Origin: Leucoraja ocellata
Taxonomy: Eukaryota
Assembly (NCBI GenBank): GCA_036785375.1
Contig: JAWMAR010000070.1
Location: 4,650,001-4,714,000 of the forward strand
DNA: 64,000 bases
Direction: 5' to 3'
The translations under genes and the position numbers were made by a program. Under the pieces are notes generated by a model. That model was not told where the DNA came from. It made no database searches and worked only from the letters and a program-made list of their open reading frames with translations. Of this stretch, positions 1,330 to 40,491 are shown one piece after another; the stretch's first letter is position 1, and every line of letters starts with the position of its first letter.

Positions 1330-1368
1330 CAGCAGGTCAGTGCTAACATGGTCTCCTTGGATAAAACT

Positions 1369-1405
1369 ATGTGGATTCCAATGCTGCTCATTTATTCCAT
1401 GCCCG
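1369..1405 (+). CDS. Gene A exon 1, signal peptide MWIPMLLIYSMP (in-frame upstream ATG at 1348 adds MVSLDKT)
   Basis: Hydrophobic leader ending G|GTAAGT (phase 1); joins the V exon in frame to give ...MPVSGALW. Confidence 0.85.
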
Positions 1406-4400: not shown

Positions 4401-5731
4401 CAAATCAGTAGGGCAGAAAAGTGGCAAAGCCAGTTTAATCCAGAGAAGTGAGAGGAATTACATTTGACAAAGAGGTCTAAATAAAGACATTAATATATGG
4501 ATGTTGAGGGAGTGTGGAGGAACAGAAGGACCTTGGAGAATATTCTCACAGCTCATTAAATGCAATATGACAATTAGTTAGTTTTAGAGATACAGCCTTG
4601 AACAGGCCCTTCGGCCCACAATGTCCAAGCCGACCAACGATTACCCGTGCACCAGTTCTATCCTACACCCTTGGGGTAATTTACAGAAGCCAATTAACTT
4701 ACAACCTACTCATGTTTGAATTGTGGGAGGAAACTAGAGCACACAGAGGAAACCCATGCGGTCACAGGGAGAACGTACAAATTATGTACAGGCAGCATCC
4801 ATAGTCAGGATCAAACCCGGGTCCTTGGCGCTGTAAGGCAGCCACTCTTCTGCTGTGCTACTGTGCTGCCCAACTAGTGTAAACAGTTAGGACCAAAGAA
4901 CTGCAGGTGCTGGTTTGTACCAAAGATAGAAACAAAGTGCTGGAGTAACTTAGAAGAGTGTCTGAAGAAGGGTCCCAATCCCGAAACATCACGCATTCTA
5001 TTTCTCCAGACATGCTGCCTGACCCGCTGAGTTACTCCAGCACCTTGTGTCTATCTTTAGTGTGAAGAGGACTCGGTGGGCCAAAGGGCGTCTTTCCATG
5101 CTGTATTTTTCAATCAATTCAATCAATAGAAAAATATCTTATGATCATTAAATTCTCCAATTTTACGTTGCACACCCCCCTACCCTCTCTCACTTTCCTG
5201 TGCACCATTTAACCCATGCCTCTTCCTCCCTTTCACCCTGTCCCCTACCAAATATACCCCTCCCTCTGTCTTTACATTTCGCTTCTCATCTCTCCTCATC
5301 TGACAACCTTTTCACCGCTTTTCACCTCCAGTCTTTGTCCACTCGTGAACCAGTCAAAATTCCCCCCTCATCTGTATCCACTTGTTGTGCTGCCTGTCCC
5401 GCTGAGTTACTCCAGCAATTTGTGTCTACCTTCCACCTGTCACTTGCCAGGCTTTATCCCATCTCCACCTCTCTTCCAGCTTTCCCCACCCTACTTTAAT
5501 CAGTCTGAAGCAGGGTCCCAACCCGACACGTCACGTGTCCATTCCCTCCAAAGATGCTGCCAGATCTGCTGAGTTACACGGGCACTTTGTGCTTGGCTCA
5601 AGGGTAAGTGAATGTCCACACACGGGTTGGACCATTCGGCCCATCGTTGATTAGGGGAAGAGTGGGTGGGACAGCAAACGCTGTGTTAAGTAGATTTGTC
5701 CTGTACATGTTCTGATGATTTTTCTTCTCAG

Positions 5732-6049
5732 TTTCAGGTGCTCTGTGGGCAAAGACACCTGTAAGAGGAGTTGTGGGAAAAACTATCACAATCGATTGTC
5801 ACTATGAAGTCTGGTACCGTTCACATACAAAATACTGGTGTCATGGGTGGACTAACTCGTGTTCAGATGTAGTGAAAACAAATGGGCAACACAGACGTGG
5901 AAGATGGTCAATCACAGATAACTCGACACAAGGAATATTTACTGTGACTGTGGAGGGTCTTCTCTCTAGAGATAAAGGATGGTACAGCTGTGGAATTGAT
6001 ACATCTGGCTTGGATCCAATGTTTAACGTTCGGGTCCAAGTATCTGACG
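5732..6049 (+). CDS. Gene A exon 2, CD300/pIgR-like Ig V domain
   Basis: TTTCTTCTCAG acceptor; ITIDC..KYWCHGWTNSC..DKGWYSCG has the canonical V-set Cys/Trp plus the extra KYWC-x6-C pair of CD300/pIgR/TREM domains; donor GACG|GTACGT. Confidence 0.93.
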
Positions 6050-6092
6050 GTACGTTTTACATTTATACCAAGCCAATTAACCTGTAAACCTG

Positions 6093-6506
6093 GGTTACAC
6101 AAAAAAGCTGGAGAAACTCAGCGGGTGCAGCAGCATCTATGGAGCGAAGGAAATAGGCAACGTTTCGGGCCGAAACCCTTCTTCAGACTGATCGGGGGCG
6201 GGGGTGGGTGGGGACATGAAAGGGAAAAGGAGGAGTAGCCAGAAGGCTGGGGGATGGGAGGAGACAGCGGGGGGGGGGGGGGCTGAGGAAGGGGAGGAGA
6301 CAGCAAGGACTAACAAAATTGGGAGAATTCGATGTTCATGCCCCCGGGGTGCAGACTCCCCAAACGGAATATGAGGTGCTGTTCCTCCAATTTCCGGTGC
6401 TGCTCGCTGTGGCCATGGAGGAGACCCAGGACAGAGAGGTCGGAGACGGAGTGGGAGGGGGAGTTGAAGTGCTGAGCCACCGGGAGGTCAGCTTGGTTCT
6501 TGAACC
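6093..6506 (-). mobile_element. Recent Penelope-like insertion specific to gene A intron 2
   Basis: 16-bp target-site duplication TTAACCTGTAAACCTG (6077-6092 and 6507-6522); the site is empty in gene B. Confidence 0.85.
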
Positions 6507-7728
6507 TTAACCTGTAAACCTGTACGTCTTTGGAGTGTGGGGGGGAAACCGAAGTTTTCAGAGAAAACCCAAGCAGGTCAGGGGGAGAATGTACAAACTC
6601 CAGACAGACAGACAGACAAGTACCCGTGGTCATGATCGAACCCGGGTCCCTGGCGCTGTAAGGCAGCAATTCTACAGCTGCGCCACCGTGCCGCCCTTAA
6701 TGATGCACCATAGGGATCAGTGCCGGGATCTTTGAGCTTTGGCCGAATTCTGTTCTTACCCCTCCTGGGAGTGTGCAGATGATGCCCCTGGATCTGGAAT
6801 AATGATGAAACGGCAAACAGGGAAATGTCTTTTATTGTGGAGGAATGAACTGCAGATGCTGTTTTAATCGAACATAGACACAAAATCTATAGATAATATA
6901 GATGCGTCACTGGGTGGCGCCGAGATGGCAGCCTCGCCAGCAGTCTGTGTGTTATTTCGACTTTTTTGTTATTTTCAGTCTGTCTAAAATGTATGTTTTA
7001 ATGTTTCTCTTTGTTTTTTTCATGTGGGGTGTGACGGGAGGGGAGGGGGGTGAGGGGAGGTGAGGTGAGGGGGGGTGAGCGGAGGGGAGGGGGGGGCGAA
7101 CCCGTTTTCAGTCACTTACCGCAACAGAGATGTGATCTTTCCCCGTGTCACGTCTCCGTCCCCTCCCCACGGACTAACAACTGGATGGATGCGGCCTTTC
7201 CTGGAGACCGGGCTGGAGCTTCGCCGCAAGGGCGACGCGGACTTTAACATTGCGGAGCTGTGATCCTTTGCTGAGAATCGCTGTGGAAGCTCTACAACCG
7301 CGGGGCTTGCGGACTTTAATACCGTGAAGCCGCGGAGAGTTTCCGTTCCGCCCCGACTCCGGAGTCTCCATCATCCCGACGAGAGGGCTTGAACATCGGG
7401 CCGTCGGCAGTGGCAGTGCTGAGGGTTCAAGGCCCCGACCACCACGGGTAAACAAAGGAGGAAGATGACTGAACCTTGTTGCCTTCCATCACAGTGAGGA
7501 ATGATGATTCCACTGTGGTGGATGTTTATGTTAAAACTATTGTGTATTGCGTTATGTTTTTAAACTTGTATGGCTGTATGATAACTCAAATACCACTGTA
7601 CCTTAATTGGTGCACGTGACAATATGTGAACTTGAACTTGAAATGTTGGAGTATCTCAGCGGGACAGGCAGCGTCTCTGGAGGGAAGGAATGGGTGACGT
7701 TTCGGCCCGAGACCCATCCTCAGACCCG

Positions 7729-8178
7729 AATGACGAAAGACTGGATAGACTTGGTTTATACTCTCTAGAATGTAGGAGATTGAGAGGGAATCTTATAGAA
7801 ACTTACAAAATTCCTAAGGGGTTGGACAGGCTAGATGCAGGAAGATTGTTCCCGATGTTAGGGAAGTCCAGGACAAGGGGTCACAGCTTAAGGATAAGGG
7901 GGAAATCCTTTAAAACCGAGATGAGAAGAACTTTTTTCACACAGAGAGTGGTGAATCTCTGGAACTCTCTGCCACAGAGGGTAGTTGAGGCCAGTTCATT
8001 GGCTATATTTAAGAGGGAGTTAGATGTGGCCCTTGTGGCTAAGGGGATCAGGGGGTATGGAGAGAAGGCAGGTACGGGATACTGAGTTGGATGATCAGCC
8101 ATGATCATATTGAATGGCGGTGCAGTCTCGAAGGGCTGAATGGCCTACTCCTGCAGCTAATTTCTATGTTTCTATTCT
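7729..8178 (+). mobile_element. CR1/HER1-like LINE 3' fragment, absent from the gene B copy
   Basis: ERLDRLGLYSLE..RTRGHSLRIRG..FFTQRVVNLWNSLP peptide and a TTTCTATG tail. Confidence 0.85.
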
Positions 8179-8282
8179 AAACTTCACCCATTCCTTCTCT
8201 CCAGAGATGCTGCCTGTCCCGCTGAGTTACTCCAGCATATTTTGTCTATCTTTAATTGTCTTTTATTTCCTTTTCTCAACAG

Positions 8283-8388
8283 AACCTGAACCTAATCCTG
8301 GATCGTCAACAACAACAACAGTAGCATTTACTTCAACTACAAAAGTAACATCCGAAAACAATGATCATGCCACCAGTTTCTCTAACAG
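8283..8388 (+). CDS. Gene A exon 3, Ser/Thr/Pro-rich stalk (EPEPNPGSSTTTTVAFTSTTKVTSENNDHATSFSN)
   Basis: Polypyrimidine-CAACAG acceptor; phase 1 in and phase 2 out (AG|GTATAA); same 106-nt length as in gene B. Confidence 0.85.
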
Positions 8389-9530
8389 GTATAATTTTCA
8401 CTTGCTCAAGTTTTGATTGGCCTTGTTTTCAATATGAGAGGTGGAGACACAAGGAACTGTTGATCCATACATAGATAGATAGACAATAGTGCAGGAGTAG
8501 GCCATTCTGCCCTTCGAGCCAGCACTGCCATTCAATGTGATCATGGTTGACCATCCACAATCAGTACCCCGTTCCTGCCTTGTCCCCATATCCCTTGATT
8601 CCGCTAGCCCTAAGAACTCTATCTAATTCTCTTTTGAGTGTATCCAGTGATTCAGCCTGCACTGCCTTCTGAGGCAAAGAATTCCCCAGATTCGCAACTC
8701 TCTGGGTGAAAAGGTTTTCCTCGTCTCAGTTCTAAATGGCCTACCCCTTATTCTTAAACTGTGGCCCCTGATTCTGGACACCCCCAACATCGGGAACATG
8801 TTTCCTGCATCTCACGTGTCCCTTAATAATCCCTTAATAATTTTATATGTGTCTATAAGATACCCTCTCATCCTTCTAAATTCCAGTGAATACAAGCCCA
8901 GTCGCTCCATTCTTTCATCATATGACAGTCCCGCCATCCCGGGAATTAAACTGGCTGGATGCTGGATCCTTGAGTACAACACAAAGTACTGGAGTAACTC
9001 TAGGTTGTCGAGGGTGGCATGGTGGTGCAGCGGTAGAGTTGAAGTTTGAAAACGCACACCTGCAGAGTCAGGGACATTTTCTTCCCAACGGTTATCAGGC
9101 AACTGAATCATCCCCTCACCAGCGATCCTGACCTCCCATCTACCTCATTGGAGATCTTCCAACTTTGTTTCATCAGACTTGCATCTGATCACATAGGATT
9201 TAAGGCACAGAAAAGATCAACTGAACTGATCCCATGCTGGTGTTTACATACCACTCGTCACTTCTCCCATCTTTTCTTATCTAACTTTATCAACGCTAGA
9301 CACAAAATGCTGGAGTAACTCAGCTAGTCAGGCAGCATCTCTGAAGAACATGGATAGGTGAGGTTTCAGGTTGAGATCCTGGATGGTGGAATTTCCCAGC
9401 TGAACTCCCTGGGCTCTGTTGCTGTACCCTGCTCCATGCAGAGATTTCACAACAATCAGGCTATGAATGTTTCCAACACGAACTAGTCTGTTTCCTCCTA
9501 CTGATTCTGTATCTTTCCCCTTTTGCTCAG

Positions 9531-9621
9531 TTACATGATATGGAATGTGGGACGCTGGCTGTACTTCGCTCTGCTTGGGATCTGCAGCATCTCAGTCTCA
9601 TTGTTCACAAGTATAAGGAAG
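9531..9621 (+). CDS. Gene A exon 4, transmembrane exon with Arg (SYMIWNVGRWLYFALLGICSISVSLFTSIRK)
   Basis: TTTTGCTCAG acceptor with phase 2 matching the stalk; AAG|GTATGT donor; hydrophobic helix containing N-x-x-R. Confidence 0.85.
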
Positions 9622-10397
9622 GTATGTTTTGCGGAGATCATCAGAATCGCTGAATGCTTCCAAATGCTGTCCATTAATACCTTCAAACATGCTGATAAAA
9701 TAAAACAAACGAAAAGCGTTTAGATAAAGTACTTCACAAATATAGGCCAAACCAATGCTCTACGAAGATGATATCAATTGGTCTTGACAAGATGTGTGTG
9801 TGCAGAATGAACTGAAGTGTTTGACGTAGATGTTGTAGTGTCATTGAATCAGAGAAATACAACTGGGAAACAGGCCCTTTGACCCACTGTAACAAGCGCA
9901 GACCATCTTATCTGAACCCAATTCCCTCCCCTCTACTTTCAGTTTGAAGAAGGGTCCCGACCTGAAATGTCACCCATCCTTTTTCTCCAGAGATCGTGCC
10001 AGACTCGCTGGGTTACTCCAGCACTTTGTGCCGATCAGGCCATTGATCACCCGTACGCATTAGTTTGATGTTATCCCATTCTCTCATCCCAACTCCCAAC
10101 ACACTAGGGGAAATTCACACTGGCCAATTAACCTGGAAACCCACAAGTCTTTGGGAGGTGGGAGGAAACCGGAGCTCGCGGAGGAAACCCACATGGACAC
10201 AGCGAGAACATGCAAACTCCACACAGATAGCATCAAAGTCAAAATCCAAGCAAATTCTTGGACGTTGGGAGGCAGCAGCTCTATCAGCTGCATCACTGTG
10301 CCAATTGGAACAAGAATTCTGTTGTTAGTGGCCTTGTGAAATAAAGCACAATTCCCGGAGTCAATTATCTGATGACTTCAAACATTTTTTTTTGCAG

Positions 10398-10433
10398 GGA
10401 CCTAATGAACCGAAACCTCACAGCTTGCCGTAG
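10398..10433 (+). CDS. Gene A terminal exon, short cytoplasmic tail GPNEPKPHSLP*
   Basis: TTTTTTTGCAG acceptor, phase 0; the peptide is identical in gene C despite synonymous changes; AATAAA at 10800-10805. Confidence 0.75.
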   Translation, partial: GPNEPKPHSLP

Positions 10434-11541
10434 AAGGCAGAATGAAGATCCACTGGTGATAGTGACTGTGAAACAACTCTCCAACAAGACCAAATGATCA
10501 TTATTATTTTGAATGAATTAATTAATTAATACTTCATTGTCACGTGTGACAAGTCACAGTGAAATTCTTTGCTTGCTAACCCAAGGTATGCAAATAGTCG
10601 CACATAAAGGGCATTGATAAAGTGTTTTTCATTTTGCTTTCATAATAGACTGCACAGAATTAATGCTTCTTCTGCTAAAATTATTAACTTAGTTTACACA
10701 ATATTCACTCAGTAAAGGTGCCATTTAAACAATGTTGCTAGCCTTTATAGCAATGACTTATTATTTTGTGTTGTGTAGCATGACATTGCAGTTATGTGGA
10801 ATAAATTGTATTCAATCCTGGAAATGCCTCATGGTTTTAACTGTGAAGAATATTTAGAAGAGGGAAACTATAAGCTATGACATCCCATCAGATCAAATGT
10901 TCTGGAACTACTTTTTCTCATGAGAACATCACTGTAATATACTTTGCTGAGCTGTTTTCAAGTCAAGTCTGTCATTCTTATGTGCACGTATGGTGAGGTG
11001 CAGATACAATGAAAATCGCACTTGTGGCAACATCACATACACGTAGACACACAAAAATATAAATGATACATAGGGCGGCACGGGTGTATAGCGGTGGTGT
11101 TGCTGCCTTCATTTCAGCGCCAGGGACGCGGGTTCGATACGGGTGCTGTCTGTACGGAGTTTGTATGTTCTCCCCATGACCAAGTGGGTTTTCTCTGAGA
11201 TCTTTGGTTTCTTCCCACACTCAAAGACGTGCAGGTTTTTAGGTTAATTGGCTTTGGTAAAATTGTAAATTGACCCTAGTGTATGCAGGATAGTGCTGGT
11301 GTGCGGAGGAGATAGCTGGTTGGCGTCAACTAGGTGGGCCAAAGGTCCTGTTTCCATGCTGTATCTCTAAACTAAACTCAACTCAACTAAGACGTCCAAT
11401 TCCACTCAAGGAAAGTCACCGTATCTCTCAAACTAATTGGCACTTTACTCAAAGCAATGGGTTCCATCTGACAATCTTGTTCTCTTTATTCACTGCATGT
11501 GAAAACAGCTGAGACTTAATTTTATTTCCTTGCCTCAACAG

Positions 11542-11812
11542 AACTTGAATAAACTTATGAAGGAATGATGAATGAATGATGAATGAATAGGTTTATGAAT
11601 GAATAGGTTTATTGACCAAGTATTCACATACAAGGAATTTGCCTTGGTGCTCCGCACGCAATTGCAATGTGACACACAGTGACATTATGAATGACACCTA
11701 AAACATTAAACATTAACAATAACATATATTTTTATAACAGAACCAATGACAACCACACTATCTCCAATTACAAAATTGATATCAACAGTATTCAAAACAA
11801 ATATAGTGCAAG
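11542..11812 (+). pseudogene. Orphan stalk-like exon relic downstream of gene A (copy at about 41607-41870 downstream of gene C)
   Basis: The acceptor TATTTCCTTGCCTCAACAG resembles the stalk acceptors; the relic is interrupted by a (GAAT)n-type insertion; 11741-11812 reads EPMTTTLSPITKLISTVFKTNIVQ with an AAG|GTATAT donor. Confidence 0.4.
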
Positions 11813-14366
11813 GTATATTCTTCTCATAATTTTTTTTACGCACTGGAACTGAATCCATGTCGAGGACATTTGGTCGATTTTGTATTGTTTTGTATTGTAT
11901 TGTTAAACGCAAGCGTTTAGTGTGCTTGATTGTCATATCACGTCAACTAAGATGCCCCATCTACTCTAGTTCCTCCTGCCAGCGTTTGGTCCATCTCCTA
12001 CTAAACTAGTCCAATTCATGTAACTGTCCAAATGCCTTTAAAATGTTTTTGTAGCACCTGCCTCAACTACCTCATCAGTTAGCTCATTCCATACACCCAC
12101 AACTCACTGTGTAAAAAAATGATGCCCCTCAGGATCCTATGAAATATTTCCCCTTTCACCTGAAGCCTTGTCCCCTGGGTCTTGATTCCCCTGCTCTAGG
12201 TAAGATACTTGTTTCCCTTGTTACCCTTGTTTCCCTTTCCCCTAACTTTGTCTGAAGAAAGGTCTTGACTCAAAACATCACCTATTTCTTTACTCCAAAG
12301 ATGCTGCCTCACCCAATGAATAACTCTAGGTTTTTGAGTCAATCTTCGGTTTTAACGAGCATCTGCAGTTCCTTCATAGAAACATAGAAACATAGCATAA
12401 GGTGCAATAATAATTTAAAATATAAATAATACCAGGATCTGGTAACGGGGGGTATAAAATACATTAAAAAAAAAAAACACGGTTGGTATATCCTTTCTTG
12501 CGAGTTTTGTGTTACAATAGAGCGATTGTTTTTCCTTTTCTTTCTTTTCTTTTTAGGGTCTTATTTCCTTTCTTTACTTCCTTCTCTAACTTCTTCCCTA
12601 AGGGGCTTTCTTTTCCCAACACTTTCCTGCACCTTCACGATTCTTGCTCACTTTCCTTACTTCTTTTATTTCTATCTATTTTTAAAAATAACAAAAAAAA
12701 ATTAAAAAAATTAAAAATTGTTTTAAAAAAAAAAGAAAAGAAACATAGAAAATAGGTGCAGGAGTAGGCCATTCGGCCCTTCGAGCCTGCACCGCCATTC
12801 AATATGATCATGGCTGATCATCCAACTCAGTATCCTGTGCCTGCCATCTCTCCATACCCCATGATATCTTTAGCCACAAGGGCCACATCTAACTCCCTTT
12901 TAAATATAGCCAATGAACTGGCCTCAACAACCTCCTGTGGCACAGAATTCCAGAGATTCACCACTCTTTGTCACCTGCCCGCTGTTCCTGACGCTAAAGC
13001 CTTGGGATCGTTGCCCTTCGTGTTGGCATGGAGCGGGAGGGGAATATTGTGCTGTTTGGTCACCCCCTGCTAATCCCAGGGACAGGGAGACACAGCGGCT
13101 TTTGAGACTGGTGGGCAATCACTTCCAAAGTGGCTGCCCACAGTCAGTACACCTGTCCTACACTTGTCTCCCGCACTAAGATCATCCCGCAGAGAATGAT
13201 CCCAGCCTAACCCAAGAGCCATGTCACCCCAGACAGATTAAAGACGCCCGCCCCCTCTCACAGCGCCAGAGACCTAGATTCAATCCCGACTATGGGTGCT
13301 GTCCGTGCAGAGTTTGTACATTCTCCCTGCGACTGCATGGGTTTCCTCCGGGTGCTCCGGTTTCCTCCCACATCCCAAAGACGTACAGGTTTGTTGGTTG
13401 AATCCTTTGGTAAGAAAAATTGTAAACTGTTTCTAGAGTGTAGAATGGTGCTAGTGTGCGGGGTCATCGCTGGTCGGTGCGGACTTAGTGGGACAAAGGG
13501 CCTCTTTCCACAATTATCTCCAAAAGTAAAAAATAAAAAAATAAAAGGCTGGACTATATACATCAGTCAATGAAAATTGGATTACTTTTATTTTACACTC
13601 CAGACGTACAGGTATGTAGGTAAATTGGCTTGGTAAAAGTAAAAAAACTGTCCCTAGTGTGTGTAGGATAGTGTTAATGTGCAAGGATTGCTGATCGGCA
13701 TGGACTCGGTGGGCCGAAGGACCTGTTTACTAAACTAATCAGAACTAAATTTAACTGACTAAACAGAACTAAATCTAACTTTTATTAAACACCTTCGCTC
13801 GGTCCGCAAGAACCTACCTGACCTCCCGTGGCTCAACACTTCAACTCTCCCTCCCATTCCCATTCCGACCTCTCTGTCCTGGGTCTCCTCCATTGCCAGA
13901 GTGAGCAACACCGGAAATTGGAGGAACAGCACCTCATATTTCGCCTGGGGAGTCTGCATCCTGCGGGCATGAACATCGAATTCTTCCAATTTTGTCAGCC
14001 CTTGCTGTCTCCTCCCCTTCCCTCAGCCCTCGGGCTTCTCCTCCTCCTTTTTCCTTCCTTCTCCCCGCCACCCCCTATCAGTCTGAAGAAGGGTTTCGGC
14101 CCGAAACGTTGCCTATTTCCTTCGCTCCATAGATGCTGCTGCAGCCGCTGAGTTTCTCCACCATTTTTGTGTACCTTAAATTTAACTGAGACAACTTCAA
14201 ATTCTAAAGTTTCAGATTTTATCATGTCTCATTCTGGTTTCACAATCAGGTTTCCTGTTCCCTTCTTCCTCATTCTTAATACATGCCATATTTGTCAGAC
14301 CGTTCAGTCTGAGGACTAAGAACTGATCAGCAGGTCAGTGCTAACATGGTCTCCTTGGATAAAACT

Positions 14367-14403
14367 ATGTGGATTCCAATGCTGCTCATTTATTCCCTGC
14401 CCG
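14367..14403 (+). CDS. Gene B exon 1, signal peptide MWIPMLLIYSLP (upstream in-frame ATG at 14346)
   Basis: Copy of the gene A leader with a G|GTAAGT donor. Confidence 0.85.
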
Positions 14404-17400
14404 GTAAGTAACAGCTTGATTTGGACGGTCATGTGACCAGACTCTACGGGAAGTATGAGATAGTCACAACGTGCTGGAGTAACTCAGCGGGACAGGCTGA
14501 AGAAAAGTCTCGACCCGAAATGTCACCCATACCTTCTATCCAGTGATGCTGCCTGTCCCTCTGAGTTACTCCAGCATTTTGTGTCTATCTTCGGTGTAAA
14601 CCAGCATCTGCAGTTCCTTCCTTTACATATGCTGGAAATACTTAGCAGGTGTGCCGAGAAAAAGAGTTACCCTTTCAGATCAGAGATCCTTCGACCTAAA
14701 ACCTAACTTTATCTCTCCCCACAGATGCGCCCTGACCACCTGATTATTTTTTTGTTTTCGTGTTAGATTTTGTTAACCGCCATAGTTTTATTTTGATATT
14801 CATTTTGGTGATCAGAATGTAACTGGGTCTTGTGTACCATTTCTGCAGTGGAGATAGTTAAATGCTTGCAGATGTAAAGATAACTGAACAATATTGGGGC
14901 GTGGATCAAGAAAGAGGAACTCAGTGGGTCAGCCTGCATCTGTGAATGTGAAGAGGACCCTGTATCGGGACTGAGCAAGGGAGGCAGGAAAGGTTGAATC
15001 AGGATCGGCAGGTGGGCTTGTGTGTGAGGAGAACACCAGAGGGTGTGAATTACCCAAAATTGGAAAATGTAATGTTTGTACCATTGAGTTTTGAACTATC
15101 AATCAACATCTCATGTTCTGCTTGTGTATTCTCTATCAAACACATCCTCTTCATCCAGTTCCATCTTCCTCAACCAGCCCCAACCCTCCCACCCATTAGT
15201 ACATCTATATGTTGCCAAACATCTCTGTCTCCTCTCAGTCCTGATGCAGGGTCTCGATCTGAAAGAACAACTTACACTTTACTTTTTTGCCTTCAAACCT
15301 CCATGACCCACTGAGTCCTTTCAGTGTGCTGTTTGTTGTTCCAGATTCCAGCATCTGCAATCTCTTTTGTCTCAATATTAGAGTGTGGTCTTCCAATCTC
15401 CTCCTGTCTCCATCACTGTGCCACACATAAATCATGGCCGCCAATGTATCTGACAGCACAAAGCGACTGTGAATGAAAAACAGAGACAATTACAAGTGAC
15501 TGGGACAGTGGCACAGCGGTGCCTTACAGTACCAGAGACCTGGGTTCAATCCTAACTAAGGGGACTGTCTGTAGGGAGTTTGCACTTTCACCCTGTGACC
15601 GCATGGGTTTTTTACCCAGTCCCCTGGTTTCCTCCCACATCCCAAAGACGCACAGATTTGTAGGTTAATTGGCCTCTAAAAATAGGGAATAAGGACTATG
15701 TAAATTGTCCCTAGTGTACAAGATACTAGGTCAGCACGGTCACGTTGGGCCAAAGGGCCAGTTTCCATGCTCTATCTTAAACTAAACTAAACTAAAGTAA
15801 CGGTGTCAAAGTGCAAAGGGACCCTGTCTATTCATGAAACATTGTTTTATTGCTTGCTTGCACTCACTAACAGCAGCCAAGCAATAATGCCAAAACAATT
15901 GTCTCCATTTTACAACACTTCCTCTTATTTAAAGTTCAGATGTTGTTTGACGTCCAGTTCCTCTTGGGCTGTGGGTTGCTCTTGCAATGTAACCATTTCC
16001 TTCTTGTTCTTGGACATCAACTATGCATATTTGTCAAAGTCATCAGCATGCAATATTAATAATTTATTGTTACCAAGTAAATTCTTTTTTTCAATGTTAT
16101 CACTGATGCTCAGATGCAGGTGAAGGCCAACATTAACTGTCTTCATTCACCAGATCATTTCCGGTAATCTAGTATCATTGCTTTACTAGTTTAGTTTAGT
16201 TTAGTCCAAAGAAGTCCAATTATTGATTGTTCAAGGGGGTAAATAGGAGGCCAGGACTGCGCTCTAGCTACTGAGAGGATGGGTCAGTTGCCTGATAACA
16301 GTTGGTAAGAAAACTGTCTCTGAATCTAGAGCATTGGGTTCAAACTTCTGTTCCTCGTGCCTAATGGTAGACAGGTAAAGAAGGAGTGACTGAGATGAAA
16401 CTGCTCCATGATTATGCTGGTGGCCTTGCAAGGCAGCGTGAAGTGTAGGTGACTATTTCCTTGTTTATAGATGGGGATGATGGCAAATAAGGTTTACCCT
16501 CCATAAAACAGGCCAACGATATACGTGCATTTGGGGGATAAGGTTGTTGTAGGGATCCACAAGCCTCAGTACTCATCAATAGACAATAGGTGCAGGAGTA
16601 GGCCATTCGGCCCTTCGAGCTAGCACTGCCATGTAAGATTATTGTAAAATTATTTTAAGATTATTAAGGGTTTGGTCACGCTAGAGGCAGGAAACATGTT
16701 TCCGATGTTGGGGGAGTCCAGAACCAGGAGCTACAGTTTAAGAATAAGGGGTAAGCCATTTAGAACGGAGATGATCAGCCATGATCACATTGAATGGCGG
16801 TGCTGGCTCGAAGGGCCAAATGCCCTACTCCTGCACCTATTGTCTATTGTCCATTGTTTATTGAATGCGATCATGCTTGATCATCCCCAATCAGTACCCC
16901 TTTCCTGCCTTCTCCCCATATCCCCTAACTATTATCTTTAAGAGCCCTATCTAGCTCTCTCTTGCAAGTTTCCAGAGAATGGGCAGAGAATTCCACATAC
17001 TCACAACTCTCTGTGTTTCCTTGTCTCCGTTCTAAATGGCTTACCCCTTATTCTTAAACTGTGGCCCCTGGTTCTGGACTCCCCCAACATCGGGAACATG
17101 TTTCCTGTCTCTAGTGTCTCAGCATCCATAGTCAGGATCAAACCCGGGTCCTTGGCGCTGTAAGGCAGCCACTCTTCTGCTGTGCTACTGTGCTGCCCAA
17201 CTGGTGTAAACAGTTAGGACCAAAGAACTGCAGGTGCTGGTTTGTACCAAAGATAGAAACAAAGTGCTGGAGTAACTTAGAAGGGTGTCTGAAGAAGGGT
17301 CCCAATCCCGAAACATCACGCATTCTATTTCTCCAGACATGCTGCCTGACCCGCTGAGTTACTCCAGCACCTTGTGTCTATCTTTAGTGTGAAGAGGACT

Positions 17401-18058
17401 CGATGGGCCAAAGGGCACCTTTCCATGCTGTATTTTTCAATCAATTCAATCAATAGAAAAATATCTTATGATCATTAAATTCTCCAATTTTACATTGCAC
17501 ATCCCCCTACCCTCTCTCACTTTCCTGTGCACCATTTAACCCATGCCTCTTCCTCCCTTTCACCCTGTCCCCTACCAAATATACCCCTCCCTCTGTCTTT
17601 ACATTTCGCTTCTCATCTCTCCTCATCTGACAACCTTTTCACCGCTTTTCACCTCCAGTCTTTGTCCACTCGTGAACCAGTCAAAATTCCCCCCTCATCT
17701 GTATCCACTTGTTGTGCTGCCTGTCCCGCTGAGTTACTCCAGCAATTTGTGTCTACCTTCCACCTGTCACTTGCCAGGCTTTATCCCATCTCCACCTCTC
17801 TTCCAGCTTTCCCCACCCTACTTTAATCAGTCTGAAGCAGGGTCCCAACCCGACACGTCACGTGTCCATTCCCTCCACAGATGCTGCCAGATCTGCTGAG
17901 TTACACGGGCACTTTGTGCTTGGCTCAAGGGTAAGTGAATGTCCACACACGGGTTGGACCATTCGGCCCATCGTTGATTAGGGGATGAGTGGATGGGACA
18001 ACAAACGCTGTGTTAAGTAGATTTGTCCTGTACATGTTCTGATGATTTTTCTTCTCAG

Positions 18059-18376
18059 TTTCAGGTGCTCTGACGGCAAATACACCTGTAAGAGGAGTTG
18101 TGGGGAAAAATATCACAATCGATTGTTACTATGTAGCACGGTACCGTTCACACACAAAATACTGGTGTCATGGGTGGACTCGCTCGTGTTCAGTTGTAGT
18201 GAAAACAAATGGGCAACACAGACGTGGAAGAGCGTCAATCACAGATAACCCGGCACAAGGAATATTTACTGTGACTGTGGAGGATTTTCTCTCTAGCGAT
18301 ACAGGATGGTACAGCTGTGGAATTGATACATCTGGCTTGGATCCATTGTTTAACGTTCAGGTCCAAGTATCTGACG
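18059..18376 (+). CDS. Gene B exon 2, CD300/pIgR-like Ig V domain
   Basis: 318 nt with the same splice sites as the gene A V exon; KYWCHGWTRSC and DTGWYSCG motifs. Confidence 0.93.
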
Positions 18377-19717: not shown

Positions 19718-19823
19718 AACCTGAACCTAATCCTGGATCGTCAACAACAACAACAGTAGCATTTACTTCAACTACAAAAGTAACATCCGAAAACAATGAT
19801 CGTGCGACCAGTTCCTCTAACAG
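19718..19823 (+). CDS. Gene B exon 3, mucin-like stalk
   Basis: Near-identical to the gene A stalk exon; CAACAG acceptor and AG|GTATAA donor. Confidence 0.85.
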
Positions 19824-22424: not shown

Positions 22425-22510
22425 ACCCATAATTTACCTCAGTATTGCTGGAGTTCTTCTCGTGGTGATATTTGCTGGTCTACTTTGGTGCCTAATGTGT
22501 AGACAAAGGA
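22425..22510 (+). CDS. Gene B exon 4, uncharged transmembrane exon (RPIIYLSIAGVLLVVIFAGLLWCLMCRQR)
   Basis: TCTCTGTCCCATAG acceptor, phase 2 in; A|GTGAGT donor; hydrophobic run followed by a basic stop-transfer sequence. Confidence 0.88.
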
Positions 22511-24013: not shown

Positions 24014-24274
24014 GGTTTGCCAGCAGGAAAACGGAGCATCGTTTATGCAACACTGTCAGACATTCGAAGCAACAAGGAAGCTGCCCATTGTTCTAATCAA
24101 TATCAAACTGTGTATGCAGAAGTGCAAGTTCAAAGCAAATCGACAGGGTCTCACTCCAGTACTGGGGAGGACAATGTCACCTATTCAGAAGTTACATCTC
24201 AAAGCGTCAGCCAGATTGCCCGTCAGAAAGCTCCTTCTCCTGTGCAGAGTATTTATGCCACTGTGACTTCTTAG
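24014..24274 (+). CDS. Gene B terminal exon, inhibitory tail with IVYATL, TVYAEV, VTYSEV and SIYATV
   Basis: TTTTTCAG acceptor, phase 0; ORF 24017-24274 carries four ITIM/ITSM-consensus tyrosine motifs, then TAG. Confidence 0.9.
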   Translation, partial: GLPAGKRSIVYATLSDIRSNKEAAHCSNQYQTVYAEVQVQSKSTGSHSSTGEDNVTYSEVTSQSVSQIARQKAPSPVQSIYATVTS

Positions 24275-29677: not shown

Positions 29678-29715
29678 ACAATAAACGTCCCAGCATGGGG
29701 TCTGCATCTAAAACG

Positions 29716-29752
29716 ATGTTGGTGCCAATTCTTCTCATTTGTTTCTTGCCCG
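29716..29752 (+). CDS. Gene C exon 1, signal peptide MLVPILLICFLP (upstream in-frame ATG at 29695 adds MGSASKT)
   Basis: Same length, phase and two-ATG layout as the A/B leaders; G|GTGAGT donor. Linkage to the V exon crosses the N gap. Confidence 0.8.
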
Positions 29753-31615
29753 GTGAGTAACATTCAGCATTGGACATTCTGATAATTAGTATTAGTTTGC
29801 ACGTTATACACTGTTGCCACTGCAGAGATGCAGTGTTATTAATGTGTAATGTTTTATGTAGCATTCCTATCTGTCACTGTATGCCATTTTGTCATTTGCG
29901 GGCGGAGCACCAAGGCCAATTCCTTGTATGTGAATACTTGGCCAATAGACATTCATTCATTCATTCAGATGGTTAAAAATGTGTCGCCACGTAAAGCTGC
30001 AAAATGTTCAGCACATAATAATATGACCAGTATTGGAATATAGTCATGTAAACACTCTCTCTCTGTAACATGGTACTACACAAATCATCACCAATGTATC
30101 CAATGTGTACTTCAAGTAGCCTTTGCTTTCCCTCTGTCTCCATCACCTCCCCCTTCTCGCCAGAGATGACGTCTGACCCGCTGCGTTACCCCAGCATTTA
30201 GTCGATCAAAGACACACGGCACTCCGTCCACGCACTGCAATGGGAAATGTTGAACCTAAACCTTAGCACATTCAAAGAAAATTCTGTGAAAGCCAGCCAT
30301 TGGGAACAGGCGTCATCTCAAATGAGGAAGCACCAGAGTGACTGTCCAATTTAGCATTTGGAGAAGTAGTGGTAATCTCTCCCTTCTAAGAAAAACCAGC
30401 TGCCTTACAACAGACTCTGCTGCTCGAGCTGTTCTTCACACTGTGCTTTCCCCAGCCTCTGAGTTCTCCTTCAAGGCATTTGTCTTGTGGCTTGTGAGCC
30501 GACCTGGACTGATATGATGATGTGTCTCCACCCCAGCTCCTGAATCTGCAGAGTTTCACATGTGTTAGAGTCATAGAGTGATACAGTCTGGAAACAGGCC
30601 CTTCAGCCCTTCTTACCCACACCGGCCAACATGTCTCAGCAACACTAGTCCCACCTGTCCACGTTTGGTCCATGTACCTTCAAACCTGTCCTATCCATGT
30701 ACCTGTCTAACTGCTTCTTAGATTATGGGATAGTCCCTGCCTCAACTACCTCCTCTGGCAGCTTGTTCCATACACCCACCAGCCTTTGTGTGAAAAAGAC
30801 ACCTCATTATTATTCCAGGTGGACGTGGAGTTTGAAACATCAGTGGCAGATCCAGTTTCCACCACAGGCCGGGAAGTTTAGTTCAATGGGGCACAAAGTG
30901 CTGCCGTAACTCAGTAGGTCAGGCAGTATGTCATGGTCTTGACTTGAAACGTCACCTATCCATGTTCTCCACAGATGCTGCCTGACCTGCTGAGTCACCA
31001 CTGGTACCACAGGCAGCTGGCTATTCAGCTTTAGTAATGACCAAAGTGCTGGAGTAAGTCAGCAGGTCAGGCAGCATCTCTGGAGAACATGGATAGGTGA
31101 CGTTTTGGGTTGAGACCTGAATAAGGGGTAGGCCAGATGAGGAAAACTCTTTTCACCCAGAGTTGTGAATCTGTAGAATTCTCTGCCACAGAGGGCAGTG
31201 GAGGCCAATTCAAGAGAGAGTTCAAGAGAGAGTTAGATACAGCTCTTAGGGCTAATGGAATCATGGGGTATGGGGAGCAAACAGATCTGGCCGCCATTGC
31301 TGTCTGGTCGCTGAAAACCAACGCAGAATCACTCCCTGACCCTGGATCTGGAGTAACACCCTGGAGTAACTCTTGCTTCTGGTTTCCTGGTCCTCCACAA
31401 ATATTCTAAATGGAATTTAAACTGGAGGTGGTGGAGGGCTGAACAATAACAGCCTATTGTATTGTATTGTGTATATATATATGGTCTATGGTATATAAGG
31501 ACACTGAACTTTTATCTCCTGTTCTGTAATATGTTTACATATTCTCTTGTGCTGCAGCAAGCAAGAATTTAATTGTCCTATCTGGGACACATGACAATAA
31601 AACTCTCTTGACTCT

Positions 31616-32586
31616 AGTACACAAAAATGCTGGAGAAAGTCAGCAGGTGCAGCAGCATCTATGGAGCGAAGGAAATAGGCAACGTTTCGGGCCAAAACCC
31701 TTCTTCAGACTGATGGGGGGTGGGGGGGGGGGGGGGGGGGGGGGCAGGGAGAAGAAAGGAAAAAGGAGGTGGAGCCCGAGGGCTGAGGGAGAGCTGGGAA
31801 GGGGAGGAGACAGCAAGGGCTAACGGAATTGTGAGAATTCAATGTTCATGCAATGGAGGAGGCCCAGGACAGAGACGTCAGATACGGAATGGGAGGGGGA
31901 GTTGAAGTGCTGAGCCCGTTCCCTCCGTAACTCCCTTGTTAATTCTTCCCTTCCCTCCTGCACCACCCCCTCCCCAGGCACTTTCCCATGCAACCGCAAG
32001 AGATGCTACACTTGTCGCTTTACCTCCCCCCTTGACTCCATTCAAGGAGCCACGCAGTCGTTCCAGGTGCGACAGAGGTTCACCTGCATCTATTGCATCC
32101 GCTGCTCTAGATGCCAGCTGATCTACATCGGTGAGACCAAGCGTAGGCTTGGCGATCGTTTCGCCGAACACCTCCGCTCGGTCTGCATTAACCAACCTGA
32201 CCTCCATGTGGCTCAGCACTTCAACTCCCCCTCCCATTCCGTATCCACCCTCTTTGTCCTGGGCCTCCTCCATGGCCAGAGTGAGCACCACCAGAAATTG
32301 GAGGAACAGCACCTCATATTCCGCTTGGGGAGTCTGCATCCTGGTGGCATGAACATTGAATTCTCACAATTCTGTTAGCCCTTGCTGTCTCCTCCCCTTC
32401 CCAGCTCTCCCTCAGCCCTCTGCTTCTCCTCCTCCTAACCCTAACCCCCCACCAGTCTGAAGAAGGGTTTTGGCCCGAAACATTGCCTATTTCCTTCGCT
32501 CCATAGATGCTGCTGCAAACCGCTGAGTTTCTCCAGCACATTTGTGTACCTGGGATTTTCCAGCATCTGCAGTTCCTTCTTAAACA
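31616..32586. mobile_element. Fold-back Penelope-like insertion: inverted 3' end plus GIY-YIG endonuclease fragment
   Basis: ORF 32067-32378 IYCIRCSRCQLIYIGETKRRLGDRFAEH is GIY-YIG-like; 12-bp duplication TCTCTTGACTCT at 31604-31615 and 32587-32598. Confidence 0.8.
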
Positions 32587-33045
32587 TCTCTTGACTCTTG
32601 ACTTGGACGCAAGCATGAAAGGGTTCTTGGGGAAAAAAGAGGTACCTTAAATTTAGTTGCGTCTGTTTGGGTAACTATGGTAGGGTGAAGACTATTCCAT
32701 GCTTTAATTGTGCGGGGTTACTCCATGGAGCAGCCAGCAACTCTGGATAGAAGAAATTGGGTGACGTTTCGGGTAGAGACCCTTCTTTACCCTCCCTCTG
32801 GTTTTAGTGTTTTTAGTTTAATTTAAAGATACAGCGTGGAAACAGGCCCTTCGGCCCACCGAGTCCACGCCGACCACCGATCACCTGTACACTAGTTCTA
32901 TCCCACACATTAGCGGAGTAAGTCAAGAGTCAAGAGTGTTTTGTTCACTCACGTCCCAGTTAGAACAATGAAATCCTTACTAGCAGCAGTACAACAGAAT
33001 ATGTAAACATAGTACTCTGTAAACAATGTTATAAACGAGAAAACA

Positions 33046-33273
33046 NNNNNNNNNNNNNNNNNNNNNNNNNNNNNNNNNNNNNNNNNNNNNNNNNNNNNNN
33101 NNNNNNNNNNNNNNNNNNNNNNNNNNNNNNNNNNNNNNNNNNNNNNNNNNNNNNNNNNNNNNNNNNNNNNNNNNNNNNNNNNNNNNNNNNNNNNNNNNNN
33201 NNNNNNNNNNNNNNNNNNNNNNNNNNNNNNNNNNNNNNNNNNNNNNNNNNNNNNNNNNNNNNNNNNNNNNNNN
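33046..33273. other. Assembly gap (228 N) in intron 1 of gene C
   Basis: Run of N. Confidence 1.
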
Positions 33274-33412
33274 ACGTATCTCCTCAAAAACCTGACACAA
33301 AAAAGCGGAGATTTTTACAATTTCCGTAGCGATTTATCTTAGGAGTTCAGAAATCCATTCCTTGGTCAATTATTTCCCCAGATTTTGAATAAATCTCTCT
33401 CCCCACCCCTCT

Positions 33413-33448
<36 letters not shown>

Positions 33449-33902
33449 CCACCTCTCTCTCCTTCTCTCCCCCACCTCTCTCTCTCTTCCCACATCTCCA
33501 CCCCTCACCCCGTCCTCCCCCCTTCTCCCTTCCCCCTTCCCTGTACCCCCCTCCTTCCCTGCCACTCCATCTGCCTCTCCTCCTCCCTCCCTCTTCCCCC
33601 CTTCTCTCTCTGCCATCACTCTCTCCCCCCCCCCCCCCCCCCCTTCATCTCTAGACGCGCCTGCGAGTTGGGGGCTTTGCGTCAGTAGATAGGGCGGTTG
33701 TGGGGTAAAAGGAGCAAATGAATAATATTAATATATTGACAAGGGGGGGTTAGTTAGCGTGTGTGCGAGGGGGTAGTTAGTATGTGTGTGGGGGTGGTTA
33801 ATGTGTGTGACGCCGCATGCCACCCCCCCCCCCCCCCCCCCACCTCTCCCCTCGCAACCGCACGCTGGGGGTACATACACAACGGGTCTCCACTTGGTCT
33901 AG
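33274..33902 (+). mobile_element. Possible non-autonomous Helitron-like element 3' part with an internal polypyrimidine/(CT)n tract
   Basis: Ends ..CACTTGGTCTAG|T; the 5' end is lost in the gap; the subterminal hairpin is weak. Confidence 0.35.
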
Positions 33903-34927
33903 TTACGCTTCAAATTCTCAAATTGACAAGAGGTCCGGTTTGTTTAAAATTTAGCCGTTTATTTTGTTAGTTCACTAATCCTCGTGGGTAGAATGTTGGT
34001 CAACAGCGCTCCTGCAATGAGTAATCATTTACTTCTCATTTTGTGTTGCCTCTGTTGTGCTTTTGTCTAATTCAGCAAGGCCCAACCTTAACCCTGATGC
34101 TGTTGTGAAACTGATTGTGAGTTAGAGGGGATCCCTATCCAGAATCCCATATAGTTACTTGGACGTATTTTCCCACTCGGTCATTAAAGCGAGCCATTTA
34201 GTTGGTAGCTATAGTGAGGTAATTTGCTGAATATTGTACTCTGTGGTCTCCTTCCATTCACAACTGCTGGATCTTCTGGGAAGTCACCAGCCGACACTAA
34301 GGCCGGGAGATGCCGCTCCCAGCAGCGCGACGAGCGATAGAAACGCCGGCAATGCTGAGGGGCAGAGACAATGTTGGTTTGGAAGATAGACACAATATAC
34401 TGGGGTAACTCAGATGGTCAGACAGCATCTATGGAACTAAGGGATAGGTGCTGTTTCGAGATCTAGACTCTTCTACAGAGTCGGGGGAAATGGAAGAGGT
34501 ATAGACGGTTGTGTAGAGAGATATAGAACAAATAAATGAAAGATATGTAAACAAGTAACAATGGTAAAAGAAACAGGCCATTGCTGTGCGGTAAGTGAGA
34601 ACTAGTTACAGACAATGAGATTCAACAAGAAGCTGGTGCAACTTGAGTGGGGGAGGGATGGACAGAGGGGGGGATATAAGGTTTACTTGATATCAATATT
34701 CATACCATTGAGGTGTAATTTGCCGACGGGAAATATGAGATGTTGTTTCCTACCACTAGGTTGGAGATGGCAGAGACGTTTCCAATTGAAACGAGGGCAA
34801 GTCCATTCAGTGATGGATGATCTGGTCCAGTGTTAGTGTGGAGGTGAATGTTGTCCAACACACCCCTCATCATTCCGAATATTCAGCTGATTTTTCCTGT
34901 TCATTTTCAGAAGATTTGACCTCTCAG

Positions 34928-35248
34928 TTTCAGGTGCGGTGTGGGGGAAGGAACATGTAAGAGGAGTTGTGGGAAGAGCGATCACAATCGATTGTCACTA
35001 TGAAGCAAAGTACCGCTCACACACAAAATACTGGTGTCAAGGGTGGACCCGCCATTGTAGAGTTTTATTGGAAACAAATGGGCAACACGGACGGAATGGA
35101 AGAGTGTCAATCACCGATAACCCGGCACGAGGAATATTTACCGTGTCTGTGGAGGATCTTCGCTCTGGAGATACTGGATGGTACAACTGTGGAATTACTA
35201 CAACTGGCTACGATCCATTGTTTAACATTTATCTCCAAGTATCTGACG
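34928..35248 (+). CDS. Gene C exon 2, CD300/pIgR-like Ig V domain
   Basis: CTCTCAG acceptor; AITIDC..KYWCQGWTRHC..DTGWYNCG; donor GACG|GTACGT. Confidence 0.93.
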
Positions 35249-36080
35249 GTACGTTTCGCAGCGATTGACTTGACGTCTCCACTGAAATGCCTGATCCATG
35301 TTTTCTCCGGGAAGGGTCAGGGCAGCACCGATATCCCGAGGCTCCGCAGCAGTGCAGAGACCTGCGGGGAGCGGGTGGGGGGTCGGGAAACCCCACTCAT
35401 GTTGCTCTCACCCAGTGCCGGCTCTGTCCCGCTCAGCACATTTCCCTGTCTCTGAACTGTATGAAATGTCACCCTGTCAGAGGTTTGCATTCCCACTAAA
35501 ACTAATAATCCGACAGATCAGGTAGAAACAAGTGGTCTGGTCTGAATACCTGGAGAATCATAAACAGGGAATCAGTCCCGTGAGTTCAACAGACTGCATT
35601 CAATACTCCCGGGGCAGGCCAGCCCGCACCCCGCCCCCACCTCAGGGACCATACACCCTCTCCCCACCCAGCGGTCTCTCTCCCTCTATCCGGTCAATGC
35701 GCCCCCACCCCCAGCAGCCACTCACCACTGACCACCCACCGCCCGGCAGCCAGCCAGCCTCTGCACCCGGCCCAATCTCGGTGGAAATTTGAGTAAAGCA
35801 ATCCTAATCAAACCTTTCAGGAAACTCCCGGCGACCTCCAGCTTCCCCGAGTTTCTGCGATTCTCAGACTGACAATATCTCTCGCTGTCTCCACCCCGAT
35901 ATCAGCATCAGTGGGTGCCCTTCCTGTTGCAGGTCACTTAATCCAAGCACAACTATAGCCTCTCTGTATAGCCACCGAACATTGGACAGGTGTACGGCAC
36001 GTGAACAAAACCATAAGTGCTGGAAGAACTTAGTGGGTCAGGTAGCATCTGTGGAGGCAATGGACAAAACCAACTCGAGT

Positions 36081-36108
36081 CTGAAGAAGGGTTTCGGCCC
36101 GAAACGTC
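36081..36108 (+). ncRNA. Minimal type I hammerhead ribozyme core in a Penelope-derived repeat (representative copy)
   Basis: CUGAAGA-A-GGGU(UUCG)GCCC-GAAACGUC: conserved core boxes, stem II with a UUCG loop, palindromic ACGU and a GUC triplet. Stem I is short. Confidence 0.6.
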
Positions 36109-40455: not shown

Positions 40456-40491
40456 GGACCTAATGAACCCAAACCTCACAGTTTGCCGTAG
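40456..40491 (+). CDS. Gene C terminal exon GPNEPKPHSLP*
   Basis: Copy of the gene A terminal exon; AATAAA at 40874-40879. Confidence 0.75.
   Translation, partial: GPNEPKPHSLP

What the first reader, a model, noticed from the sequence alone, without database searches (positions are those of the whole stretch)
5732..6049. V exons of A and B diverge almost only at amino-acid-changing sites while the flanking intron is nearly identical
Manual alignment of 5732-6049 with 18059-18376 gives 24 substitutions in 20 codons. Eighteen of these codons change the amino acid and only 2 are purely synonymous. The preceding ~530 bp of intron (5200-5731 vs 17527-18058) shows only about 4 differences. With V of gene C as outgroup, both lineages carry derived changes (about 8 in A and 5 in B). 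An exon more divergent than its intron suggests strong diversifying selection on the ligand-binding domain, or exon-limited gene conversion from other paralogs.
Basis: partly seen in the sequence, partly recalled or inferred. Interest (0 to 1): 0.8.

Follow-up and report, generated by a model that had tools for sequence, protein, structure and literature searches.

The report
Skate paired receptors swap fast-evolving domains
Two neighbouring skate immune-receptor genes, one with a predicted "go" tail and one with a predicted "stop" tail, have ligand-sensing domains that gather amino-acid changes about three times faster than neutral DNA and are exchanged between the two tail types, likely in an arms race with pathogens, as is already known for mammalian paired receptors.

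Summary
The counts are exact: 24 substitutions, 20 codons, 18 amino-acid changes, 4 intron differences. The contrast was overstated. The chosen intron is the quietest stretch of a duplication that differs by about 3.3% elsewhere, and dN/dS for A versus B alone (2.4-2.7) is not significant.

A and B are CD300/pIgR-like skate MDIR genes. A has a transmembrane arginine and a short tail (activating type); B has four ITIM/ITSM-like motifs (inhibitory type). A second haplotype contig holds six more copies, nine genes where the window has three. Across 8 copies, 48 variant letters are nonsynonymous and 6 synonymous (P 0.001-0.013; omega 2.85). Synonymous diversity (2.7%) matches the introns (about 3%); nonsynonymous diversity is 8%. 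Import from distant paralogs does not explain the A-B differences. Conversion among close copies is real: one V protein sits on both an activating and an inhibitory tail.

So positive selection and paired-receptor shuffling both act, as known in mammals. The scan met MDIR paired clusters before on other DNA. No ligand or expression was shown.

The parts
1348..1405 (+). Gene A leader exon
   Evidence: tblastn with skate proteins; ATG and GT donor
5176..5550 (+). 375-bp run identical between the A and B introns; likely a local conversion tract and the cause of the 'quiet intron'
   Evidence: background 3.3%
5732..6049 (+). Gene A V exon: CD300/pIgR-type V-set domain with C22-C86 and the extra C36-C43 pair; N-glycan sequon at residue 63
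8283..8388 (+). Gene A Ser/Thr-rich stalk exon
9531..9621 (+). Gene A transmembrane exon with an Arg near the outer end (activating type, predicted)
   Evidence: with the tail, 42/42 identical to P0062 and 41/41 to P0063
10398..10433 (+). Gene A short tail exon with stop; no tyrosine motif
14346..14403 (+). Gene B leader exon
18059..18376 (+). Gene B V exon; identical to activating copy H3 through codon 68; N-glycan sequon at residue 17
19718..19823 (+). Gene B stalk exon (97% identical to A's)
22425..22510 (+). Gene B transmembrane exon with an uncharged membrane segment
23372..23418 (+). Gene B first cytoplasmic exon
   Evidence: matches P0011; splice ends
24014..24274 (+). Gene B last exon with four ITIM/ITSM-like tyrosine motifs and stop (inhibitory type, predicted)
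5981..18262 (+). 12.3-kb block, running from inside V exon A to inside V exon B, almost identical to two separate pieces of the other haplotype (H1 3' half; spacer plus H3 5' half); mark of very recent unequal recombination
   Evidence: 2 mismatches in 5850 bp; 2 mismatches and 3 gaps in 6434 bp; flanks 95-98.7%
29695..40491 (+). Gene C, activating type: leader 29695-29752, V 34928-35248, second Ig exon 36973-37281, stalk 38280-38382, TM 39593-39683, tail 40456-40491; TM and tail protein as in A

Best explanation
A and B are intact skate CD300/pIgR-like (MDIR) receptor genes with predicted opposite signalling, and their V exons carry an excess of amino-acid changes that is likely due to positive selection, with recombination among close copies shuffling those changes between the two tail types. 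Shown here: the gene structures; the N:S excess across 8 copies; synonymous diversity equal to intron diversity; 3 versus 9 genes on two collinear contigs; and the same V protein on both tail types. Inferred: B signals inhibition through SHP-type phosphatases, and A signals activation through an ITAM adaptor bound by its membrane arginine (by analogy with CD300A/CD300C). Also inferred: a pathogen protein that engages the inhibitory receptor favours new surface residues, and copying a V exon onto an activating tail turns it into a decoy sensor. The quiet intron beside the exon is a patch homogenised by the same conversion.
For: Gene models with AG/GT ends and open frames of 202 and 291 aa. 8 copies: 48 N: 6 S variant letters, P 0.0014-0.0125 over six mutation models including CpG. 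44:4 counted per codon allele; 37:3 after dropping 8 candidate imports, P 0.006 or less. Codon ML omega 2.85, LRT P=0.003 (MGK) and 0.006 (GY). piN 7.8-8.0% and piS 2.6-2.8% against introns at 3.0-3.3%. Variant density per site: N 0.21, S 0.07, introns 0.08-0.09. H3 (activating) and H8 (inhibitory) differ by one synonymous letter in V, yet by 3.7% in intron 1, with a 457-bp identical run. H2 (activating) and H6 (inhibitory) share a 182-bp run in V. Whole-gene incompatibility test: 0 of 1000 permutations as clustered. P0062 is 80% identical to A in V and 42/42 in TM and tail. Samples S1 and S2 both hold a 137-nt piece identical to A's V exon; S2 holds A's 5940-6005 exactly.
Against: A versus B alone is not significant (P 0.05-0.13). 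The 8 copies come from one assembly and are not independent. Recombination can inflate tree-based omega. The clustering test within the exon alone was not significant (P=0.26). No site model was run. The A/B group exceeds the rest of the cluster (ratio 1.1-1.2 over 50 close pairs) only at P=0.05. Changes are scattered over the fold, and several hit positions conserved in other paralogs (W5, I69, D76, T82, W84), which partial relaxation would also give. No ligand, adaptor binding or expression of A or B was shown. The pathogen step is analogy only.
Confidence: 0.75

Rival explanations
1. The differences were imported by exon-limited conversion from a distant paralog of the cluster of more than 100 V exons, with no selection needed.
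For: Such imports exist in sister copies. H1 codons 45-64 lie 1-4 letters from a distant paralog but 6-7 from any sister, and H4 and H2 have weaker cases. B is one letter closer to a distant paralog in 2 of 24 windows.
Against: A is closer to a distant paralog in 0 of 24 windows. 20 of 24 derived letters are at 5% or less among 120 distant V exons. An import would bring synonymous changes too (dS to gene C is 0.16-0.19), yet A-B dS is 0.04. The N excess survives removal of candidate imports (37:3).
Confidence: 0.05
2. The V exons are drifting under relaxed constraint, and the contrast is a chance excess plus a hand-picked quiet intron.
For: The pair alone is not significant and the intron is atypically quiet. 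Some changes hit positions conserved elsewhere in the cluster.
Against: Relaxation gives omega near 1, not 2.6-3.0. Nonsynonymous variant density is over twice that of the introns (P 7e-7 and 5e-8). All 8 V frames are open and keep the four Cys and the C-strand Trp. TM and tail proteins are almost invariant.
Confidence: 0.1
3. Selection is real, but it comes from divergence toward different self ligands (lipids or immunoglobulins) rather than from pathogens.
For: CD300 ectodomains bind phospholipids of dying cells, with residue-level differences between paired members (PMC12447643, Introduction). No pathogen ligand is known here.
Against: One V protein on opposite tails, copy-number differences between haplotypes and scattered surface changes suit a moving target. 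The predicted CC' and FG loops hold only 2 of 18 A-B changes.
Confidence: 0.15
4. Assembly artefact: the window is a mis-joined mosaic of the longer haplotype, so A and B are not real alleles.
For: The 12.3-kb block 5981-18262 is almost identical to two separate pieces of contig C1141, while its flanks differ by 1.3-5%.
Against: The joints fall inside the most divergent part (the V exons) and the window has private letters near the middle joint. A's letters across its joint are matched exactly by a contig of sample S2 (5940-6005). A B-like piece across codons 68-69 appears in S1, read from 6 other letters in a partial table. The variant letters occur on both contigs whatever the joins.
Confidence: 0.04

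Closest known systems
Modular domain immune-type receptors (MDIR) of clearnose skate; MDIR3 = P0026, MDIR5 = P0054
   Same: 62-67% identity over leader and V. A's TM matches MDIR5's Arg-bearing TM (53% over 38 aa). B's tail matches MDIR3's tyrosine-motif tail (29% over 140 columns). Described as a multigene family of activating/inhibitory receptors (PMC3031540, passages).
   Different: A and B have one V domain plus a stalk; MDIR3 and MDIR5 have several Ig domains. They form a separate subfamily, closest to Amblyraja radiata models (79-83% in V). My searches found no paper on selection, haplotype copy number or V/tail exchange in MDIRs. The original MDIR paper was not held.
Mammalian CD300A/CD300C and CD300lf/CD300ld paired receptors
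   Same: Single V domain with a second disulfide, Ser/Thr-rich stalk, ITIM tail versus charged TM with a short tail, and gene conversion between the ectodomains (PMC12447643). Best single-domain sequence and fold hits are CD300lf (E 2.4e-18; TM 0.71). The mouse CD300 locus is stated to be under positive selection, and CD300lf is a norovirus receptor (PMC7162533 passages).
   Different: Only 35-40% identity, and orthology was not tested. The TM charge is Arg, not the Glu of CD300C. In primates conversion is read as preserving the ligand site; here several V lineages coexist and diversify, and gene number differs threefold between haplotypes.
Dog CEACAM1/CEACAM28; SIGLEC5/14, KIR and LILR (these last recalled, not read)
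   Same: Near-identical ligand-binding domain on opposing tails through gene conversion, with pathogen pressure proposed (PMC2110893 abstract).
   Different: Different Ig families. The dog CEACAM28 N domain is under purifying selection, whereas these V domains show omega near 2.8.
Polymeric Ig receptor (pIgR)
   Same: V domains align to pIgR domains and top the whole-chain hit list. Many relatives carry the automatic name 'pIgR-like'.
   Different: One V domain instead of five (two in teleosts). The loop after the B strand is two residues shorter than in pIgR domain 1. Tails are of the paired-receptor type.

Membership tests
MDIR / CD300-like receptors of cartilaginous fish | V-set domain of CD300/pIgR type with the extra C-C' cysteine pair | tested here: met
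   PF07686; C22, C36, C43, C86 invariant in 28 aligned domains; best fold CD300lf
MDIR / CD300-like receptors of cartilaginous fish | Sequence kinship with named MDIR proteins in leader, V and TM/tail | tested here: met
   (P0026, P0054)
MDIR / CD300-like receptors of cartilaginous fish | Clustered multigene family with modular domain content | tested here: met
   150 scored matches, all on C70 3.87-4.90 Mb and C1141; V-only and V+second-Ig genes side by side
Paired activating/inhibitory receptors | Similar ectodomains on opposite tails (charged TM and short tail versus ITIM tail) | tested here: met
   A versus B 83% identical in V; H3 and H8 identical V protein; tails
Paired activating/inhibitory receptors | Gene conversion or recombination between ectodomain exons | tested here: met
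   the exon-only clustering test was not significant (P=0.26)
Paired activating/inhibitory receptors | Opposite signalling (ITAM adaptor binding; SHP-1/2 recruitment) | not testable with these tools
   inferred from motifs only
Paired activating/inhibitory receptors | Shared ligand and expression on leukocytes | tested here: inconclusive
   RNA lays gave 6 reads, all under 95% alike, or were swamped by repeats; P0062, from a 1028-nt contig, has A's exon order; ligand untested
Mammalian CD300 family (orthology) | Synteny between GPRC5C and RAB37 and one clade with CD300 | not tested
   anchors named in PMC12447643; no synteny or cross-vertebrate tree run
pIgR | Tandem V domains and the domain-1 Ig-binding loop | tested here: not met
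   single V in A and B; loop two residues shorter than pIgR D1; that this loop binds Ig is recalled

The most novel reading that the evidence does not exclude
Skates carry a KIR-like, haplotype-variable paired-receptor locus (3 versus 9 genes). A small set of positively selected V domains is repeatedly moved between inhibitory and activating tails, by crossovers and conversion tracts that fall inside the V exon, in an ongoing arms race with a pathogen ligand; some variants are shared across species. This would be direct sequence evidence that the decoy-and-counter-decoy mode of paired-receptor evolution runs in cartilaginous fish, the earliest-branching jawed vertebrates.
Probability: 0.45. 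Interest if true: 0.6.

Novelty: new member of a known kind. Interest (0 to 1): 0.42.

Why it matters
Rapid, conversion-driven evolution of paired immune receptors is established in mammals. This locus shows the same pattern in a skate, in unusually direct form: the same V protein on both a predicted activating and a predicted inhibitory tail, a threefold difference in gene number between two haplotypes, and omega near 2.8 over the whole domain. It picks out, among more than 100 V exons, the subfamily most likely to face a moving ligand. It also gives natural variants for finding that ligand, which to my knowledge has not been identified for any MDIR (recalled, not searched).

Tried and rejected
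RNA evidence: no RNA holder was listed. The 9.4-kb lay was swamped by repeats and showed no splice joints. The V-exon lay gave 6 RNA reads, all under 95% alike. None of this bears on expression.

GC-biased conversion as the source of the N excess: rejected, since polarised variants are 21 S>W against 10 W>S. CpG hypermutation: rejected, it raises the expected synonymous share. Multi-letter mutations: counting per codon allele keeps the excess (44:4). Long retention of old V alleles: not supported, since dS equals the intron level. A and B as domains of one pIgR-like gene: rejected, each has its own leader, TM and stop. C1141 as an unlinked duplicate: unlikely, it is collinear with C70 at 96-98% out to its far end.

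Mapping on structure: the model is modest (pLDDT 69.5, one good model of five) and no coordinates were available, so surface exposure was not computed. 12 of 18 A-B changes fall in DSSP loops, which make up about half the domain; this was counted by hand and not tested.

The upstream (pi 0.11) and stalk (0.086) values were not used: upstream alignment is doubtful, and H6/H8 have a replaced stalk end. C-type copies (4) gave no significant pair.

Literature: searches listed no paper on selection or conversion in MDIRs, judged from titles and abstract starts. The library lacks most subscription journals, and the original MDIR paper was not held. No supplements were consulted.

Full report
OBSERVATION. 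The two 318-bp exons align without gaps and differ at 24 letters in 20 codons; 18 codons change the amino acid and 2 are synonymous only. The 532 bp upstream differ at 4 letters. The intron chosen is not typical. Other blocks of the same A/B duplication differ by 126/3849, 48/1200 and 62/995, and 4/532 is low against 3.3% (P=2e-4). For the pair alone, Nei-Gojobori gives 21 N and 3 S differences, dN 0.094-0.098, dS 0.036-0.040, ratio 2.4-2.7, one-sided P 0.07-0.12 (0.05-0.13 under six mutation models). Synonymous sites match the non-coding background (P=1.0), and nonsynonymous sites exceed it about 2.6-fold (P=1e-4). The effect is real but about a quarter of the tenfold contrast implied.

WHAT THE GENES ARE. 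The exon is a V-set domain. Its best single-domain relatives among solved structures are CD300lf, CD300a and CD300c, with pIgR leading on whole-chain score. The predicted fold (pLDDT 69.5) matches CD300lf best. All 79 named proteins among the 80 longer relatives are from sharks, rays and skates; they include skate MDIR3 and MDIR5, and the closest are Amblyraja models at 79-83%. These proteins located the other exons, all with AG/GT ends and open frames. A (202 aa) is leader, V, stalk, a membrane segment with an arginine near its outer end, and a short tail without tyrosine. B (291 aa) is leader, V, stalk, an uncharged membrane segment and a tail with four ITIM/ITSM-like motifs. C (305 aa) has V, a second Ig domain and A's TM and tail. 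By the known design of CD300A/CD300C (PMC12447643: abstract, introduction and passages read), A is predicted to be activating and B inhibitory.

MORE COPIES. The genome search scored 150 of 228 candidates; all 150 lie on C70 (3.87-4.90 Mb) and contig C1141. C1141 is collinear with C70 at 96-98% wherever tested, out to its far end, so it is most likely the other haplotype. Where the window has A(act)-B(inh)-C(act), C1141 has nine genes: H1, H2, H3 activating; H4 inhibitory; H5 C-type; H6 inhibitory; H7 C-type; H8 inhibitory; H9 C-type. That gives 8 A/B-type V exons, all with open frames.

SELECTION. The 8 exons hold 54 variant letters, 48 nonsynonymous and 6 synonymous; P 0.0014-0.0125 for expected synonymous shares of 0.24-0.29, CpG included. 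Counted per codon allele the ratio is 44:4. After dropping 8 singleton codons that are common in distant paralogs it is 37:3 (P 0.006 or less). Codon ML gives omega 2.85; fixing omega at 1 is rejected (P=0.003 MGK, 0.006 GY), though recombination weakens tree tests. With the 4 C-type exons added the likelihood gain is smaller. TM and tail proteins barely vary, and P0062 is 80% identical to A in V but 42/42 in TM and tail. In the rest of the cluster, 50 disjoint close pairs from 109 usable of 120 V exons give pN/pS of 1.1-1.2; the A/B group is higher at P=0.05. There is no GC bias. N-glycan sequons move among copies: residue 63 in A, 17 in B, three in H4, none in H2 and H6.

CONVERSION. I compared against 116 distant V exons fetched from C70 and the start of C1141, plus 4 C-types; the divergent downstream exons (32-43% identity) were left out. 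20 of 24 derived A/B letters occur in 5% or fewer of them. A is closer to a distant paralog than to a sister in 0 of 24 windows, and B in 2 of 24, by one letter. So distant import does not explain the pair, although H1 has a clear imported patch around codons 54-56. Exchange among close copies is evident. H3 (activating) and H8 (inhibitory) differ by one silent letter in V but by 3.7% in intron 1. H2 (activating) and H6 (inhibitory) share 182 identical bp in V. B (inhibitory) equals H3 (activating) from upstream of the leader to V codon 68, and A equals H1 from V codon 83 through the tail. The 12.3-kb block between those points has 4 mismatches and 3 gaps against C1141 and skips one repeat unit, while the flanks are 95-98.7% identical. 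Over the whole gene, incompatible sites cluster as recombination predicts (0 of 1000 permutations); within the exon alone, 90 of 351 site pairs are incompatible but the clustering test is not significant (P=0.26).

ARE THE ALLELES REAL? Contigs of two samples, S1 and S2, each contain a 137-nt piece identical to A (5749-5885), and S2 has A's 5940-6005 exactly, across the joint at 5981. Letters typical of B/H3/H8, H2/H6 and H4 are also present (24 of 151 pieces shown). At most one of the two samples can be the assembly's source. A run with another species label (X5) shares many of the same variant letters and adds new ones. These are short unphased contigs and cannot confirm the long-range order.

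WHERE THE CHANGES FALL. On the model's secondary structure, the 18 A-B changes are spread over strand A, the end of B and the BC loop, CC', C', D, the DE and EF loops, the end of FG and G; none lies in strands C, E or F. In CD300lf the CC' and CDR3 loops bind norovirus (PMC7162533, passages); only 2 of 18 changes fall in the corresponding loops here. The pattern is domain-wide rather than one pocket. This rests on a modest model with no exposure calculation.

MECHANISM. Tandem units of about 12 kb recombine unequally and convert one another, which changes gene number, homogenises patches of intron and moves V exons between tails (shown in sequence). New amino-acid variants in V are kept in excess (shown statistically). 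The likely driver is a pathogen ligand that engages the inhibitory receptor, favouring escape variants and activating decoys (inferred from mammalian paired receptors; no ligand known). Relaxed constraint, self-ligand specialisation and mis-assembly are the rivals.

KNOWN VERSUS NEW. The genes belong to the MDIR/CD300-like family, already described as activating/inhibitory in skate (PMC3031540, passages). Conversion between paired ectodomains is published for primate CD300A/C (PMC12447643) and dog CEACAM1/28 (PMC2110893, abstract only), and positive selection is stated for the mouse CD300 locus (PMC7162533). Eight searches listed nothing on selection, copy number or V/tail exchange in cartilaginous-fish MDIRs. 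The original MDIR paper could not be read, so it may already note some of this. Earlier notes of this scan reported MDIR paired clusters in other genomes and called them known; I had reached the family and pairing before reading them. Verdict: a real, well-supported new instance of a known kind; interest 0.42.

Noticed in passing
G000:C1141 (L031-L048) versus window 1-42000: The second haplotype has 9 receptor genes where the window has 3; C-type copy H7 has no match to the second Ig exon.
   Followed up: partly
G000:C70:3.87-4.90 Mb: Well over 100 related V exons in about 1 Mb, in blocks of alternating strand, many about 0.9 kb apart (multi-domain genes); few have stops.
   Followed up: partly
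window 9174-11938 versus 39236-41979: The activating TM/tail module of A and C differs by only 2.8% although their V exons differ by about 17%, so tails are shuffled as modules too.
   Followed up: partly
window 43133-49654: Tandem repeat with a period of about 2.86 kb, 97.7-98% identical and also present on C1141; a 100-bp piece resembles 38050-38149. No protein match.
   Followed up: no
window 6093-6502: Repeat insertion in intron 2 of A, shared with H1 and absent from B.
   Followed up: no
C1141 copies H6 and H8: Both have a different 3' end of the stalk exon; H6 has Cys in place of Tyr in the second tyrosine motif.
   Followed up: no
window 5726-5737: Two in-frame AG acceptors lie 6 bases apart; one contig of run X5 has lost the first.
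   Followed up: no
G000:C70 about 13.6, 59 and 79 kb before the window: Minus-strand stretches 82-85% like B's tyrosine-motif exon lie inside plus-strand V/Ig arrays.
   Followed up: no
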